Shown here: piece by piece, positions 23,493 to 34,319 of the stretch
Numbering within the stretch: the stretch's first letter is position 1
How the letters are laid out: the number at the start of each line of letters is the position of its first letter
NCBI GenBank assembly: GCA_965218695.1
Contig: OZ244651.1
Coordinates: 2,232,337 to 2,296,336, forward strand
DNA from: Nitrosopumilus sp.
GTDB taxonomy: Archaea; Thermoproteota; Nitrososphaeria; Nitrososphaerales; Nitrosopumilaceae
Reading direction: 5' to 3'
DNA length: 64,000 bases
The notes under the pieces: model-generated
The model's input: only the letters and a program-made list of their open reading frames with translations
Database searches by the model: none
Told to the model about the DNA's origin: nothing
Position numbers and translations under genes: made by a program

Positions 23493-23544
23493 GGTTCTGT
23501 GAAGTTGTAGGTACATAGGCATGAATATGGATCTTCTCCAGATT
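23493..23544 (+). repeat. left 52-bp terminal inverted repeat
   Basis: GGTTCTGTGAAGTTGTAGGTACATAGGCATGAATATGGATCTTCTCCAGATT. Confidence 0.9.
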
Positions 23545-23600
23545 GATGCTCGGGAGGGCACTGTTCAGAATTGTGGATCAATGTTAAATCATGCCAAGCC

Positions 23601-23720
23601 AGATCATCTATGGTAACCCGTCCCCGGACCTATCCTTGCCTTGCGTCCGGCTTGCCACTTTGTGTATGCCTTTTGCCCTCTTAAGCATTATCTGCGGACA
23701 GAATCCTGCCAGATCCGCAG
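23601..23720. repeat. about 120-bp repeat arm shared with 34047-34319
   Basis: AGATCATCTATGGTAACCCGTCCCCGG...CTTAAGCATTATCTGCGGACAGAATCCTGCCAGATCCGCAG aligns by eye with both inverted arms of the palindromic element at 34047-34319. Confidence 0.75.
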
Positions 23721-23773
23721 AAGATACGGCTGTTTGCCCCGCGACGTGACATGCATAATCCCTTCCGGGGGGT

Positions 23774-23792
23774 CTGGGGGGCGTCCCCCCAG
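23774..23792. other. perfect GC hairpin (8-bp stem CTGGGGGG/CCCCCCAG, 3-nt loop)
   Basis: Seen directly in the sequence. It lies about 90 nt downstream of the IS110-type gene on the minus strand. Confidence 0.6.
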
Positions 23793-23881
23793 CATTCATG
23801 TAAAAACATCCCGTCATTCCCATAATTTGTGCACAGCATCCGCTATATCCGGCAGGTCTGCTGACGTCACCGGTTCTGCGT

Positions 23882-24955
23882 CTACACCCTCATCAGCTTC
23901 TTCATCTTGGTGCGGTACAGCGTCTTGTTCCTGTCCACGTACAGGGTGCCGTCCGACAGCATATGCCATATGATCGTCAGCATCTTGTTTGCGACGTGCG
24001 TCATGGCAATGTACGGCTTGTGCCTCTTGATCAGGCGGGCATAGTACCCCTTCATCCTCACGTCGTGGTGCGCTGCGACCATCGCGCACTGGATCATCAC
24101 CCAGTTGACCTTCCGGTTCGAATCCTTCTTCATCCTGCCGTGGTACAACGTGTCGCCGGACTGGTGGAGCGTGGGACACATCCCGGCCCAAGACACGAGC
24201 TTCTTTGGGCTGTCAAACCTTTCGATGCCGTCGATCTCCGCTGACACGAGTGCAACCGAGAACACGCTCATCCCCGTCATGCTCAGTATTTTGGAGCTGT
24301 AGCTGCCGCTGACGTAGCGCCTGATCTCGCCTTCGGTCTTTTTTATCTCGCCGTTGTAGTGCCTTATCCTGGATATGCAGCGGTCAAGGACGAACCTGTC
24401 GTGGACGCTTCCCATGTCCGCCCCCACGAGGTATTCCAGTACCTTCTCGCTCCAGACGTCTTGTCCACCGTCCTTGGGGCTGATGTCGTACTTGTCAGTC
24501 AGCGTGTGCCCGAAGTTGATCTCGCTTGTCCTGTCCTGCACCAGACGGATCTGGTATCTGATGACCTGCTTTATCCCACGGGATTCCGTGGATCCTATGT
24601 GGCATGCGGGAACCAAATCGGCCCTGAGCAGGTGGGCAAGCGTCCTTGCGTCGACGGTGTCGTTCTTTATGCTGGCCCACGCGATTGCCTTGATCTTGAA
24701 CGGGTTGGCAAGGTCGATGGGGATTCCCGCCTGCTCAAACGCGTCTGCCGTCTTTATCCAGTGGTTTCCGGTAGACTCGCAGACCGCCCTGCACTGCCCG
24801 TATTCGGTCCTGGCACTTGCCGCAAACTCGGAGGCGCCTGCCACGGTGTTGGCGTACGAGGATTCCTCGAGAATGTTTCCCTTTGAATCCATTATGCACG
24901 TGACGCACTTCCTCTTTCCAATGTCTATTCCGATACTCTTTTCTATTTTTCTCAC
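23882..24955 (-). CDS. IS110-family DEDD recombinase/transposase
   Basis: 357-aa ORF with IGIDIGKRK, CESTGNHW, NDTVDARTLAHLLRADL and the C-terminal LVSWAGMCPTLHQSGD (Transposase_20-like). Confidence 0.88.
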   Translation of the reverse strand: MRKIEKSIGIDIGKRKCVTCIMDSKGNILEESSYANTVAGASEFAASARTEYGQCRAVCESTGNHWIKTADAFEQAGIPIDLANPFKIKAIAWASIKNDTVDARTLAHLLRADLVPACHIGSTESRGIKQVIRYQIRLVQDRTSEINFGHTLTDKYDISPKDGGQDVWSEKVLEYLVGADMGSVHDRFVLDRCISRIRHYNGEIKKTEGEIRRYVSGSYSSKILSMTGMSVFSVALVSAEIDGIERFDSPKKLVSWAGMCPTLHQSGDTLYHGRMKKDSNRKVNWVMIQCAMVAAHHDVRMKGYYARLIKRHKPYIAMTHVANKMLTIIWHMLSDGTLYVDRNKTLYRTKMKKLMRV

Positions 24956-25149
24956 CTCCCTTTTGCTTGTGGCAGGCCGGAAGCTGCAAACATCTATCAG
25001 GGCTCGGAACCCAGTAACACAGCAGCTCGGATGGCCCCATTCACTAAACAGGCCTTGATGGCCATGATCTGATAGGGGTCGGCCCGCTACGTATGGTGGG
25101 CGTGTGGGGTTATCATGCGTTCACCAAAAATGAACAGTACCTACTGGAA

Positions 25150-26913
25150 GTAATTGTTTCGCTTTTTGAAGTAACCGGATGGCCTAGCGGACATCCATGG
25201 TACCGGGAATGAATCTAATAATTTCGTACTCGGGATGACAAAGTTAGACCATCGCGATCCAAGTACGAGTGGGTGCCAGTCCCTTCGATCTTTGGAAATG
25301 AAGGAACCAGCACGCCGAACATGCTTGGAGGCGGAGGAATTTAAGGCAATGCACGAACACTCCTTGCCGCAAATCCCGCTGGATGCCGGGGCGTGCATGG
25401 AACCAGGGTGCAGGTGCTGCCTGCACTGGGCAAAAATGTTCGGCGACGTGCTAGGCCCAACCCGCAAGATCCTGGAGGCAGCCTGCGAAATTGCAGGCGA
25501 GTCGGGCGCAGACTGGAAGGAGGCCGGGCGCCTGCAGGCGCTCGTCTCGTCCCTCACAGAGGACAACAAGAGGTACGCCAAGACAAACAGGGATCTCAAC
25601 GCCAAGGCAAACGGGATCAGCGTCCCCGCGCCCAAGAAGAAGGCCGGTCAGGGAAAGAAGGCCGCCGGCAGGCCCAAGGGGCAGAAACCCACCGTCAACT
25701 GCAGGCCAAAGCGCGTGGACCGCGTCGAGGAGATCGACTGCAAGGAGTGCCCCGACTGCGGCGGCGGGCTCTCTGGGAGGGTGACTGCCGAGTACGATCG
25801 CATCGTGACTGTCATGCGCGTCCTGTTGGAGAACGTCAGGTACGTCATCAAGCGGCGCTGGTGCCGCGTGTGCAAAAGACAGGTCTCCGGGAGGGTTCCC
25901 GGCGCGGCAAAACACGCGCGCCGTTCATCAAACTTTGACGCGGTCATGACGTCCCTGAACATGAATGGCATGTCGCATGCCAGGACCGCAGAATTTGGCG
26001 GCGACGCGTTGGGGCACGTAACCTCGCGCTCGTCTGCCTACCGCGGCAAGATCAGGCAGGCCGGGCGCATGGCGCCGGAACGCGATTCGGTAAGGGAGCG
26101 CGTGCTGGAGGCGCCACACCTGAACGTAGACGAGTTTCACTGGCCGCTGGGCGGCAAGCGCGGCTACGGGATAGTGGCTCTGGCAAAAAATCACTGCCTC
26201 GTGGAGGTGGCCGACTCGCGGGACATCAAGACGCTCCGCCAGACGCTCCCGGGCTACCGGGGAACCATAACGCAGGACTCGTATCCCGGGTGGCTCCACG
26301 TGGGATCGTGCCGCCAGATGTGCGTGTGGCACCAGGAACGCCTGGTGCAAAAGGACGTCCTGACCAACCCCGGGGGTGACGTTCCGGCGTTTCTGGACAG
26401 GCTGTCGGCAATCCACATGAAGATTTACCGCGCCTCCAGGATCAAGGACCGGCACCCAAGGATCGTCGCTGCCCGCTGCATAGACGCGGAGCTGCGCGAG
26501 CTGATGAACGAACCGTTTGCAGGCGACGGGGACGGCACCATCGCCCGGCACAAGAAGAGGTACCCGCGGGAGGGATATTTCATGACCACCTGCCTGCACG
26601 TGGACGGCATCGAGCCTGACAACAACGCAGTCGAGAGGGCCAACCGGAGGTTCGTGGCCGTAAGGAGCGACGGGGGCGGGAACCGCTCCAGGAAGGGCAT
26701 GGATGCCAACTCGATCCTGTTCACGCTGCTGGCAACTGACAGGATCAACAAGGACAGCTTCTTTGATCACCTGGTCCGCTCGTCTTCCGGGGACGGATGA
26801 GGCGCCGTCCGACGGCACGTGCAGTGCGTCACGGGGAAAAAGAGTCCACGGTAAGGGGAAGGCTGCACCCGCTCCGCTGCCAAGCAGCCCACTTCAAAAA
26901 GCGAAACTATTAC
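25150..26913 (+). mobile_element. IS66-family insertion sequence, single-ORF type (1764 bp)
   Basis: TIR GTAATTGTTTCGCTTTTTGAAGT (25150-25172) matches the reverse complement of 26891-26913 at 22 of 23. The 8-bp TSD is TACTGGAA (25142-25149 and 26914-26921). Confidence 0.9.
25235..26800 (+). CDS. IS66-family transposase (TnpC-like)
   Basis: 521-aa ORF with the zinc-ribbon CPDCGG...CRVCK and the motifs NVDEFHW, TQDSYPGW and DNNAVERANRRFV. Confidence 0.88.
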   Translation: MTKLDHRDPSTSGCQSLRSLEMKEPARRTCLEAEEFKAMHEHSLPQIPLDAGACMEPGCRCCLHWAKMFGDVLGPTRKILEAACEIAGESGADWKEAGRLQALVSSLTEDNKRYAKTNRDLNAKANGISVPAPKKKAGQGKKAAGRPKGQKPTVNCRPKRVDRVEEIDCKECPDCGGGLSGRVTAEYDRIVTVMRVLLENVRYVIKRRWCRVCKRQVSGRVPGAAKHARRSSNFDAVMTSLNMNGMSHARTAEFGGDALGHVTSRSSAYRGKIRQAGRMAPERDSVRERVLEAPHLNVDEFHWPLGGKRGYGIVALAKNHCLVEVADSRDIKTLRQTLPGYRGTITQDSYPGWLHVGSCRQMCVWHQERLVQKDVLTNPGGDVPAFLDRLSAIHMKIYRASRIKDRHPRIVAARCIDAELRELMNEPFAGDGDGTIARHKKRYPREGYFMTTCLHVDGIEPDNNAVERANRRFVAVRSDGGGNRSRKGMDANSILFTLLATDRINKDSFFDHLVRSSSGDG

Positions 26914-27566: not shown

Positions 27567-27666
27567 TGAGAAGTATCCATGCTTGGCACTTATGTGAAGT
27601 ATTTTTTCGTCACCGAACTCAATTCAGAGAAGACTCATTTCCAGCTCCCGTAAACCCGACAGAACC

Positions 27667-27718
27667 AATCTGGAGAAGATCTATATTCATGCCTATGTAC
27701 CGATAACTTCACAGAACC
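27667..27718 (-). repeat. right 52-bp terminal inverted repeat
   Basis: AATCTGGAGAAGATCTATATTCATGCCTATGTACCGATAACTTCACAGAACC. Confidence 0.9.
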
Positions 27719-33918: not shown

Positions 33919-34319
33919 GGTTCTGTAACGTTATCGTGTGCTGTGTATGGATCTTCTCCGGGTTGGATCGCGGTTGAGGCTACACATTCACGGGGGCTCT
34001 TCAAACAAGACGGTCTGACGCATATCGATTGGATGAATTTTGTCTAAGATCCACATCTATGTTAACCCCTCCCCGGGCTTGTCCAAGTTTTGCGTCCAGC
34101 TTGTCATATTGAGTATGTTTTTTTCCTTCTTAAGCGTTACCTGCATGCAGAATCCTGCCAGATCCGCGGGACAACAAGATCCAAACCTTGCCGTTTTCTG
34201 CAAATTTGACTGAATTCTTCTTGCAGGTAACGCTTAAGAAGACAAAGGGCATACCCAAAGTGACAAGCTGGACGCAAAACACGGATGAGTCCGGGGAGGG
34301 GTTACATATATGTGGATCT
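33919..34319. repeat. degenerate third copy of the 52-bp TIR end module, followed by a 273-bp palindromic element
   Basis: 33919-33970 (GGTTCTGTAACGTTATCG...TATGGATCTTCTCCGGGTTGGATCG) resembles 23493-23550. 34047-34150 and 34214-34319 are inverted copies of each other, and both resemble 23601-23720. Confidence 0.7.

What the first reader, a model, noticed from the sequence alone, without database searches (positions are those of the whole stretch)
23601..25149. Archaeal IS110-family recombinase with long structured non-coding flanks: candidate bridge/seek-RNA locus
In 2024, IS110/IS1111 elements were reported to encode a non-coding bridge RNA (also called seekRNA) in a non-coding end, which base-pairs with both target and donor DNA. 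Here the DEDD recombinase gene (23882-24955, minus strand) has about 190 nt of non-coding DNA upstream (24956-25149, then cut by the IS66). It has about 280 nt downstream (23601-23881). The downstream part contains a perfect 8-bp GC hairpin (23774-23792) and a 120-nt arm that recurs as a palindrome at 34047-34319. Possible element ends are ATGGTAACCC (23609-23618) and GGGTTATCAT (25107-25116), which are inverted at 9 of 10 positions. The IS66 insertion at 25150 may have clipped or displaced this RNA. Bridge RNAs have mostly been studied in bacteria.
Basis: partly seen in the sequence, partly recalled or inferred. Interest (0 to 1): 0.62.

Follow-up and report, generated by a model that had tools for sequence, protein, structure and literature searches.

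The report
Archaeal jumping gene with bridge RNA
This is an intact IS110/IS1111-type insertion sequence of an ammonia-oxidising archaeon, and its upstream non-coding end encodes a ~120-130-nt bridge (seek) RNA whose loops match both the insertion site and the element's own ends, so it is a known kind of RNA-guided jumping gene in an unusual layout.

Summary
The element spans window 23607-25121 on the minus strand and is flanked by a TG core on each side. It has an intact DEDD+Ser recombinase gene.

Its 5' non-coding end holds a structured RNA at 24965-25098. A closing stem encloses two stem/internal-loop/hairpin modules.

A covariance model built from it finds about 140 copies in 30 of 301 Nitrosopumilaceae genomes. 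28 of the 31 base pairs show compensatory changes.

All four loop strands covary with DNA:
- TBL 5' side with the right flank;
- TBL 3' side with the left flank;
- DBL 5' side with the first 5-6 nt of the element;
- DBL 3' side with the last 5 nt plus TG.

Permutation counts were 0/5000 for three of these and 2/5000 for the fourth. Unoccupied target sites in the same genome fix the core as TG.

Corrections:
- The IS66 element does not cut this element; 26 bp of flank lie between them.
- The RNA is upstream only. The 275-nt downstream end is conserved but has no bridge-RNA fold.
- Guide order and the 10-bp subterminal repeats are IS1111-like, yet the RNA sits upstream of the gene. Distant bacterial relatives carry the same RNA downstream.

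No expression data could be obtained.

The parts
23605..23606 (-). Right copy of the TG core dinucleotide (reads CA on the + strand); next to it is the right target ATCTGGC...
   Evidence: Empty-site comparisons in the same genome; coordinates checked.
23607..23881 (-). Right end (RE), a 275-nt non-coding stretch. It is conserved (81-86% identity to the other copies) and its function is unknown. It ends ...GGGTTACCATAGA.
   Evidence: Indels break every reading frame. No bridge-RNA-like hit. Fold z-score -0.97.
23610..23619 (-). RE subterminal inverted repeat, GGGTTACCAT.
   Evidence: Conserved in all copies and matches the LE repeat at 9 of 10 positions.
23774..23792 (-). 8-bp G/C hairpin inside the RE.
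   Evidence: Read directly from the sequence; conserved in copies. Its role is unknown.
23882..24955 (-). IS110-family DEDD/Ser recombinase gene, 357 aa, intact. Catalytic residues are D11, E60, D99, D102 and S266.
   Evidence: Pfam and NCBIfam hits. Residues aligned to the IS621 catalytic residues.
24965..25098 (-). Bridge RNA as delimited by the covariance model. The closing stem P1 pairs 25080-25090 with 24969-24979.
   Evidence: Model R1 scores 147.7 bits, E 3.5e-39. The single-sequence MFE fold reproduces the five helices. Covariation.
25064..25074 (-). Target-binding loop, 5' side: UAUCAGAUCAU. It is complementary to the top strand of core+RT (TG-ATCTG).
25039..25050 (-). Target-binding loop, 3' side: UGUUUAGUGAAU. 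It has the same sense as LT + TG + the first nucleotides of the element (handshake-type AAU).
   Evidence: The window copy matches its own left target at 4 of 6 positions plus the core.
25013..25021 (-). Donor-binding loop, 5' side: UGUGUUACU. UGUGUU pairs with the first 6 nt of the element (AACGCA; 5 Watson-Crick pairs plus 1 wobble).
24988..24999 (-). Donor-binding loop, 3' side: UGAUAGAUGUUU. AUAGA-UG has the same sense as the last 5 nt of the element plus the core.
25107..25116 (-). LE subterminal inverted repeat, ATGATAACCC. It is an A/T-rich heptamer about 25 nt upstream of P1 and a possible archaeal TATA box (inferred).
25122..25123 (-). Left copy of the TG core. The element terminus is at 25121.
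25124..25149 (.). 26 bp of flank, including the left target TTTTTGG, between the element and the IS66 terminus at 25150.
   Evidence: The IS66 transposase ORF 25235-26800 hits PF03050.

Best explanation
Window 23607-25121 (minus strand) is an intact insertion sequence of the IS110/IS1111 family in a Nitrosopumilus-type archaeon.

Its left end encodes a bridge RNA. A closing stem (P1) encloses a target-binding module (P2, internal loop, P3 hairpin) and a donor-binding module (P4, internal loop, P5 hairpin).

**Target loop**
[quoted passage not shown] It continues with AAU, which matches the first bases of the element (handshake type).

**Donor loop**
- The 5' strand pairs with the first 5-6 bases of the element.
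[quoted passage not shown] It continues into 1-3 handshake bases.

**Shown here by computation**
- The element boundaries and the TG core.
- The RNA fold.
- All four guide-DNA relations.
- The catalytic residues.

**Inferred from the IS621/IS1111 literature**
- The element excises as a circle joined ...CATAGA-TG-AAYRCATG....
- The DEDD/Ser recombinase, loaded with the RNA, recombines the TG core of that junction with the TG core of a matching target. No target duplication results.

**Also inferred**
- The RNA is transcribed from a TATA-like heptamer inside the left subterminal repeat.
- This lineage arose from an IS1111-type ancestor, with the RNA downstream of tnp, by a shift of the recombination junction around the circle.
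For: **Protein**
- PF01548+PF02371 and NF033542 at 199 bits.
- D11, E60, D99, D102 and S266 align with the IS621 catalytic residues.

**Boundaries and core**
- There are 6 full-length and more than 10 partial copies in the genome, about 79% identical to the window copy.
- Three independent unoccupied or intact target families fix the junctions as LT-TG-AAY...AGA-TG-RT.

**RNA structure**
- In the 9-sequence alignment 97.5% of cells are paired, and 7 pairs show compensatory change against 0-1 in the slid controls.
- In the 90-sequence alignment 28 of 31 pairs are compensatory, with 265 compensatory cells against 19-51 in the slid controls.
- The single-sequence MFE fold reproduces the architecture.

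**Distribution**
- 30 of 301 family genomes and 11 of 27 genera have hits.
- There are weak hits in 3 other families of the phylum.
- An open frame of at least 320 aa directly follows the RNA in 64 of 122 loci.

**Guide covariation, cognate versus non-cognate**

| Guide and DNA | Cognate | Non-cognate | Permutations |
|---|---|---|---|
| LT | 4.38 of 7 | 1.90 | 0/5000 |
| RT | 4.28 of 7 | 2.49 | 0/5000 |
| RD | 4.45 of 6 | 3.04 | 0/5000 |

- LT and RT figures are; the RD figures are.
- For LD, 8 of 11 independently anchored junctions match 5 of 5, with five different pentamers (2/5000).

**Same RNA logic elsewhere**
The same RNA logic, TG core and flank matches are seen downstream of tnp in Atribacteria and Planctomycetia relatives, which carry 14-bp subterminal repeats.
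Against: - No transcript, circle junction or protein-RNA data exist.
- Rfam has no matching family, so the model was built from the same family it was then tested on. The large alignments are fitted to that model.
- The donor 5' guide does not pair with the core (AC where CA is expected). In four copies it reads UGGGUUAC, which fits the right subterminal repeat better than the left terminus.
- The window copy is a singleton lineage in this genome. Its left-target guide matches its own site at only 4 of 6 positions.
- Some elements (L044, L058, L062, L064) show weak right-target matches.
Confidence: 0.9

Rival explanations
1. The guide RNA is of the classical IS1111 type and lies in the long downstream end (23607-23881), as the first reader also considered. 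The upstream structure would then be only a leader of the recombinase mRNA.
For: The element has subterminal inverted repeats and a long, well conserved RE of 275 nt. Distant relatives carry their RNA downstream.
Against: The RNA model finds nothing in the RE beyond the G/C hairpin at 6.9 bits, E 4.8. The RE fold is no better than shuffles, z -0.97. Relatives with the upstream RNA have REs too short to hold such an RNA, about 30-130 nt. All four guide relations map to the upstream RNA.
Confidence: 0.02
2. The upstream structure is a cis-regulatory 5' leader, for example controlling translation or stability of the recombinase mRNA, and has no guide role. The matches to flanks would arise because the element prefers related sequences for protein-based reasons.
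For: No terminator-like T-run separates the structure from the start codon, so it is probably co-transcribed with tnp (read from the sequence).
Against: The variable loop positions change together with the flanks in about 90 distinct guide sets, while the stems stay paired. A protein-only target preference would not make internal loop bases track each copy's flanks on both strands.
Confidence: 0.03
3. The family is RNA-guided, but the window copy itself is an inactive relic.
For: It is the only member of its sublineage in the genome, 79% identical to the others. Its left-target guide matches its own site at 4 of 6 positions and its handshake bases at 2 of 3. The only other trace of this sublineage is a 123-nt remnant in another genome (L131). 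A very recent IS66 copy sits 26 bp away.
Against: The ORF is full length with all catalytic residues. The RNA scores 147.7 bits with every helix intact. Both termini, both cores and both subterminal repeats are present.
Confidence: 0.3

Closest known systems
IS621 bridge RNA system (IS110 group; Durrant et al. 2024 PMC11208160; Hiraizumi et al. 2024 PMC11208158)
   Same: It has a DEDD RuvC-like domain plus a Tnp domain with a catalytic Ser. The RNA is encoded upstream of the recombinase. Two internal loops each have one strand pairing with the top strand and one with the bottom strand. A core dinucleotide is shared by target and donor and covered by the guides. Handshake-type bases lie 3' of the 3'-side guides.
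   Different: - The guide order is reversed: here the top-strand complement comes first.
- The core is TG, not CT.
- The subterminal repeats are 10 bp, not 2-3 bp.
- Both modules are enclosed by one closing stem, instead of a 5' stem-loop followed by TBL and DBL in series.
- The donor 5' guide does not cover the core.
- Protein similarity is low: phmmer E 9e-10, mainly in the N-terminal domain.
IS1111-family seekRNAs (ISEc11, ISPa11, ISKpn4; Siddiquee et al. 2024 PMC11187229)
   Same: It has subterminal inverted repeats. [quoted passage not shown] Natural reprogramming occurs between relatives. Distant relatives of this element (L029, L028) have the same RNA downstream of tnp together with 14-bp repeats.
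   Different: The RNA is upstream of tnp, not downstream. The repeats are 10 bp. The terminal extensions beyond the repeats are 5 nt (left) and 3 nt (right), counted without the core. The host is archaeal.
ISMtsp17 and other IS1111-family members with an upstream non-coding region (noted as exceptions in PMC11187229)
   Same: They combine IS1111-type features with the long non-coding region upstream of tnp.
   Different: Only the location was noted there. No RNA, guides or archaeal members were described. Relatedness to the present clade was not tested.
[quoted passage not shown]
   Same: Four copies in this genome, and copies in another genus, sit at a fixed position inside the terminal inverted repeat of an IS5-like element. 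The protein aligns over residues 8-340 at 22% identity.
   Different: The RNA model gives no hit in IS4321. The target element and the host domain are different.

Membership tests
IS110/IS1111-family RNA-guided insertion sequences | Recombinase with an N-terminal DEDD RuvC-like domain and a C-terminal Tnp domain carrying a catalytic Ser | tested here: met
   PF01548 at 4.6e-22 and PF02371 at 1e-19. NF033542 at 199 bits against a cutoff of 140. D11, E60, D99, D102 and S266 align with the IS621 catalytic residues.
IS110/IS1111-family RNA-guided insertion sequences | A non-coding end encoding a structured RNA with two guide-bearing internal loops | tested here: met
   There are five helices. 28 of 31 pairs show compensatory changes over 74 distinct sequences. 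The 9-sequence MAFFT alignment is 97.5% paired. MFE fold.
IS110/IS1111-family RNA-guided insertion sequences | Target loop strands complementary to opposite strands of the left and right target around a shared core | tested here: met
   Cognate against non-cognate matches are 4.38 vs 1.90 (LT) and 4.28 vs 2.49 (RT), with 0/5000 permutations each.
IS110/IS1111-family RNA-guided insertion sequences | Donor loop strands matching the two element termini | tested here: met
   RD(1-6) against the DBL 5' side gives 4.45 vs 3.04, 0/5000. LD(-5..-1)+TG against the DBL 3' side is perfect in 8 of 11 independently anchored junctions. Caveat: the 5' guide does not pair with the core.
IS110/IS1111-family RNA-guided insertion sequences | Site-specific insertion at a core dinucleotide present once in the empty site and at both junctions, with no longer target duplication | tested here: met
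   Three target families each have unoccupied or intact sites, with TG at both junctions.
IS110/IS1111-family RNA-guided insertion sequences | The RNA is expressed, binds the recombinase and is required for transposition; a circular intermediate exists | not testable with these tools
No biochemical data are available.
IS1111 subgroup | Subterminal inverted repeats of about 7-17 bp | tested here: met
   ATGATAACCC and GGGTTACCAT match at 9 of 10 positions and are conserved in all copies.
IS1111 subgroup | Guide RNA encoded downstream of tnp in a long RE | tested here: not met
   The RNA is at 24965-25098, upstream of tnp, and none is found in the RE. Distant relatives L029 and L028 do have it downstream.
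IS1111 subgroup | [quoted passage not shown] | tested here: met
   The TBL 5' side is the reverse complement of core+RT. The TBL 3' side has the same sense as LT+core.
IS1111 subgroup | The transposase falls in the IS1111 clade | tested here: inconclusive
   It aligns at 22% identity over residues 8-340 with IS4321/IS5075. Against IS621 the N-terminal domain scores 28 bits and the C-terminal domain 12 bits. No reference tree could be built.
IS110 subgroup (IS621-like) | Bridge RNA in the LE upstream of tnp | tested here: met
IS110 subgroup (IS621-like) | [quoted passage not shown] | tested here: not met
   The order is reversed relative to the tnp orientation (compared with PMC11208160). The repeats are 10 bp.
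Any Rfam family | A match at or near a curated gathering score | tested here: not met
   The only hits were two chance-level hits at E of 2 or more.

The most novel reading that the evidence does not exclude
This Nitrosopumilaceae clade is a third layout of bridge-RNA insertion sequences. It keeps IS1111-type RNA logic and subterminal repeats, but the RNA module has moved to the left end by a shift of the recombination junction around the circular form. An archaeal TATA-like promoter sits inside the left subterminal repeat, so guide and recombinase expression would not depend on forming the circle junction. The element would still be active and naturally reprogrammed in ammonia-oxidising archaea. 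The conserved 275-nt right end would be a lineage-specific functional module.
Probability: 0.35. Interest if true: 0.6.

Novelty: new variant of a known kind. Interest (0 to 1): 0.5.

Why it matters
Bridge/seek RNAs have been characterised in bacterial elements. In the papers I could search, archaeal IS110-family recombinases were counted but their RNAs were not described.

This family gives about 90 natural guide sets in one archaeal family. The core, termini and all four guide registers are defined, so the rules can be tested directly.

It also links the IS110 and IS1111 layouts. The same RNA occurs downstream of the gene in bacterial relatives and upstream here, which fits a simple relocation of the junction.

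As far as I know, ammonia-oxidising archaea have no established genetic tools. A native, compact, programmable recombinase with an RNA that folds and is presumably expressed in these cells is an obvious candidate to try.

The habit of inserting into the terminal repeat of another insertion sequence explains part of the nested-transposon patchwork in this genome.

Tried and rejected
- **Rfam.** Both the gathering-threshold scan and the permissive scan of the flanks gave only two chance-level hits.
- **AT core.** My first reading of the junctions, a core of AT, was rejected once unoccupied sites showed the core is TG and that AAT belongs to the element.
- **RNA in the right end.**
  - The model search with filters off found nothing there.
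  - Folding gave z -0.97.
  - Alifold showed hardly any covariation because the sequence is too conserved.
  - The small ORFs there (71 and 52 aa) were rejected because indels between copies break the frames.
- **Noisy LD test.** The donor left-guide test with loose anchors (an 8-mer with up to 1 mismatch in a 1-kb window) gave many false junctions. I redid it with perfect, unique anchors.
- **Recombinase alignment.** The first alignment included 7 mis-framed sequences, which blurred conservation. The catalytic residues were read from the IS621 alignment instead.
- **IS4321.** The RNA model gave no hit on IS4321.
- **Reference tree.** No IS110-versus-IS1111 tree was built because no reference sequences of the IS110 group could be fetched.
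- **MITE reading.** The RE-RE palindrome at 34054-34312 is unlikely to be a mobilisable MITE, because the inverted symmetry continues into the flanks.
Full report
**What is in the window**

The ORF 23882-24955 (minus strand, 357 aa) hits Pfam DEDD_Tnp_IS110 and Transposase_20. It also hits NCBIfam NF033542 'IS110 family RNA-guided transposase' at 199 bits against a cutoff of 140. In a phmmer alignment with the IS621 chain of PDB 8wt6, D11, E60, D99, D102 and S266 fall on the DEDD and Ser catalytic positions.

The window is G000:C1:2232337-2296336. The closest relatives found in public genomes are Nitrosopumilus MAGs at 74%, 71% and 65% amino-acid identity. One of these is in the same GTDB genus as the window's genome, so 'archaeal' is right.

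**Copies and boundaries**

The genome holds six full-length copies and more than ten partial ones, about 79% identical to the window copy. Similarity to them runs from about 23605 to about 25127. That region stops short of the IS66-type element, whose terminus is at 25150 and which has 100% identical copies elsewhere. Its ORF 25235-26800 hits PF03050.

I first read the core as AT. That reading was wrong. Three independent sets of unoccupied or intact sites in the same genome show the pattern LT-TG-RT becoming LT-TG-[AAYRCATGATAACCC...GGGTTA(A)CATAGA]-TG-RT:
- two unoccupied paralogs of the target of copies c392k and c2049k;
- the intact terminal repeat TAGCGTGT-TG-CATAATT of a 1115-bp IS5-like element with 8-bp duplications (DDE_Tnp_1);
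- an intact site GAGGTTGG-TG-CGTAATTC.

In window coordinates the element is 23607-25121, with TG cores at 23605-23606 and 25122-23 (read on the minus strand). A 26-bp stretch of flank separates the element from the IS66.

**The RNA**

The left ends of the copies, aligned in the tnp orientation, show compensatory changes in five helices:
- a closing stem P1 (GUGRCGGGCYG/CRGCCUGYCAC);
- P2 (CCCC/GGGG);
- P3 (GGYC/GRCC);
- P4 (GAGCUGC/GCAGCUU);
- P5 (GGRYU/AGYCC).

On a 9-sequence MAFFT alignment, 97.5% of cells pair. Seven pairs change on both sides, against 0-1 when the partners are slid. The single window sequence folds into the same architecture.

A covariance model (R1) matches the window at 24965-25098 on the minus strand, full length, at 147.7 bits, and nowhere else in the window. 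It finds about 140 matches in 30 of 301 genomes of the family, covering 11 of 27 genera. It gives weak matches in three other families of the phylum.

On 74 distinct sequences, 28 of 31 pairs show changes on both sides, with 265 such cells against 19-51 in the slid controls. That alignment is fitted to the model, which favours it.

An open frame of at least 320 aa directly follows the RNA in 64 of 122 loci.

**The guides**

The two internal loops are the variable parts: 94 distinct loop combinations occur among 122 matches. I fetched 110 loci and defined each junction from a loop other than the one under test.

| Loop strand | DNA partner | Cognate | Non-cognate | Permutations reaching observed mean |
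|---|---|---|---|---|
| Target loop 3' strand (7 nt before UGAAU) | left flank, same sense | 4.38 of 7 | 1.90 | 0/5000 (87 unique pairs) |
| Target loop 5' strand | right flank, reverse complement | 4.28 of 7 | 2.49 | 0/5000 (69 unique pairs) |
| Donor loop 5' strand | first six bases of the element | 4.45 of 6 | 3.04 | 0/5000 |

The target-loop figures are and the donor 5' figures.

Examples of the donor 5' strand tracking the first bases of the element are AAAGCC/AGCUUU, AAGGCA/AGCCUU, AAGACA/UGUCUA, AATGCA/UGCGUU and GAAGC/GCUUC.

The donor loop 3' strand repeats the last five bases plus TG. In 8 of 11 junctions anchored only by a perfect right-target match the five bases agree exactly, with five different pentamers: ATAGA, ATGGA, ATAGG, ACAGA and ACAGG (2/5000). 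The three failures include two cases where my loop extraction was wrong.

Both 3' strands continue past the core. AAU after the target guide matches the first bases of the element. The bases after the donor guide match the right target in some copies (CAU/CAT in four copies). This is the arrangement called handshake guides for IS621 (PMC11208158).

For the window copy:

| Strand | RNA | DNA partner | Match |
|---|---|---|---|
| TBL 5' | UAUCAGAUCAU | TG-ATCTG | core + 5 nt |
| TBL 3' | UGUUUAGUGAAU | TTTTGG-TG-AAC | 4 of 6 + core + 2 of 3 |
| DBL 5' | UGUGUU | AACGCA | 5 Watson-Crick + 1 wobble |
| DBL 3' | AUAGA-UG | ATAGA-TG | complete |

**Comparison with what is known**

[quoted passage not shown] Here the order is the reverse relative to the recombinase gene.

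Siddiquee et al. report exactly this reversed order for IS1111-family seekRNAs, which lie downstream of tnp. They note that a few IS1111-type elements have the long non-coding region upstream (PMC11187229). The present element has the IS1111 hallmarks of subterminal repeats and guide order, but the RNA is upstream.

Distant relatives at 28-30% identity carry a weakly matching RNA downstream of tnp:
- Atribacteria L029, 27.6 bits, E 5e-6;
- Planctomycetia L028;
- a marginal match in Thermoplasmatales L031.

L029 and L028 have 14-bp subterminal repeats. By eye they show the same closing stem, the TG core and loop strands matching their own flanks (GTTTAGCTG; GTAaTTGAT).

The simplest reading, which is an inference, is that the junction moved around the circular form. 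The RNA would then have changed from the last to the first module of the linear element.

Where the recombinase sits between the IS110 and IS1111 clades could not be settled. IS4321 gives no hit with the RNA model.

Archaeal IS110 recombinases are known: 662 in one survey, attributed to several transfers (bioRxiv 2024.06.21.599552). A 2026 preprint catalogues 32,190 predicted bridge RNAs with 86 models of diverse shape (10.64898/2026.10.21.760802). This RNA family may therefore sit unnamed in such catalogues. I found no description of it.

**Promoter (inference)**

In all lineages an A/T-rich heptamer (TGATAAC, TGTAAAC, GTATATC, GTAAATG or TGATAAAAAC) lies at element positions 8-14. P1 starts about 25 nt further on. 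That is the usual spacing between an archaeal TATA box and the transcription start. No T-run separates the RNA from the start codon, so the RNA may be cut from the 5' part of the tnp transcript.

**The right end**

The 275-nt right end is at least as conserved as the gene, 81-86% identical to the other copies. It contains the G/C hairpin and two T-runs, has no conserved reading frame, and shows no fold beyond chance. Relatives with the same upstream RNA have much shorter right ends, so it is not needed for the basic mechanism. Its role is open.

**State of the window copy**

It is the only member of its sublineage in the genome. A 123-nt remnant at 92% identity, with the same target-loop 5' strand, exists in another genome of the genus. 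Everything needed is intact, but its left-target guide fits its site imperfectly. I put about 0.3 on it being inactive.

Other copies differ from one another by 1-5% (for example c776k/c1622k at 98-99% and c241k/c239k at 97.8%) and have open frames. They sit in the terminal repeats of IS5-like elements, which speaks for fairly recent activity of the family here.

**Limits**

The donor 5' guide does not cover the core. In four copies it reads UGGGUUAC, which equals the right subterminal repeat, so its exact partner needs an experiment.

Noticed in passing
G000:C1:1128412-1129526 and 1877365-1878479 (outside the window); occupied sites at C1:241662, 776520, 240550, 1621543: Four copies of the IS110-type element sit 10 bp inside the terminal inverted repeat (TAGCGTGT-TG-CATAATT) of a 1115-bp IS5-like element with 8-bp target duplications. 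Copies in another genus (L079-L083) target the same kind of repeat. This resembles IS4321/IS5075 targeting Tn21 ends.
   Followed up: partly
window 34054-34167 (-) and 34196-34312 (+): Two copies of the last ~115 nt of the right end lie in inverted orientation with their termini pointing outward. The inverted symmetry continues into the flanks (TGTGGATCT). This looks like an inverted duplication of right end plus flank rather than a mobilisable MITE.
   Followed up: partly
G000:C1:194229-195453 and the matching insertion in the copy at C1:2048089-2049313: The same 1225-bp IS (320-aa ORF with DDE_Tnp_1 and DUF772) is inserted at right-end position 183 in two IS110-type copies that carry different guides. 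This implies either a preferred site or recombination between copies.
   Followed up: no
G000:C1:393593-394848 and C1:630372-630422: A 1256-bp element with an HTH_32/HTH_33/LZ_Tnp_IS481 ORF interrupts the left end of copy c392k at position 37. A second left-end fragment (c630k) is interrupted by a sequence with the same end, TACCAGCAA.
   Followed up: no
window 23493-23545 and 27666-27718: A 53-bp inverted repeat at 94% identity brackets the IS110-type element and the IS66 element. The window copy therefore sits inside a larger TIR-bounded element.
   Followed up: no
L029:1713-1860 and L028:1483-1579: In Atribacteria and Planctomycetia relatives (28-30% protein identity) an RNA with the same closing stem and loop logic lies downstream of the recombinase gene. 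These elements have 14-bp subterminal repeats (AGAACTC + T-run) and a TG core. By eye their loop strands match their own flanks.
   Followed up: partly
window 23607-23881: The 275-nt right end is more conserved than the coding region between diverged copies and has no conserved frame. Relatives lack most of it. Its function is unexplained.
   Followed up: partly
G000:C1:1020754-1020869 and 2369312-2369427: The right-target guide of copies c392k and c2049k matches these unoccupied paralogous sites (GTGAATTT) better than the site they occupy (GTGAACTT). Its register is shifted by one base relative to other copies.
   Followed up: no
L027 (MAG labelled Candidatus Kaiserbacteria, sponge sample RHO2): A 48%-identical recombinase with a ~75-nt right end ending ...TTTACATAGA-TG sits on a contig binned as a bacterium. 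It comes from the same sample as a Thaumarchaeota MAG (L037). This could be mis-binning or transfer.
   Followed up: no
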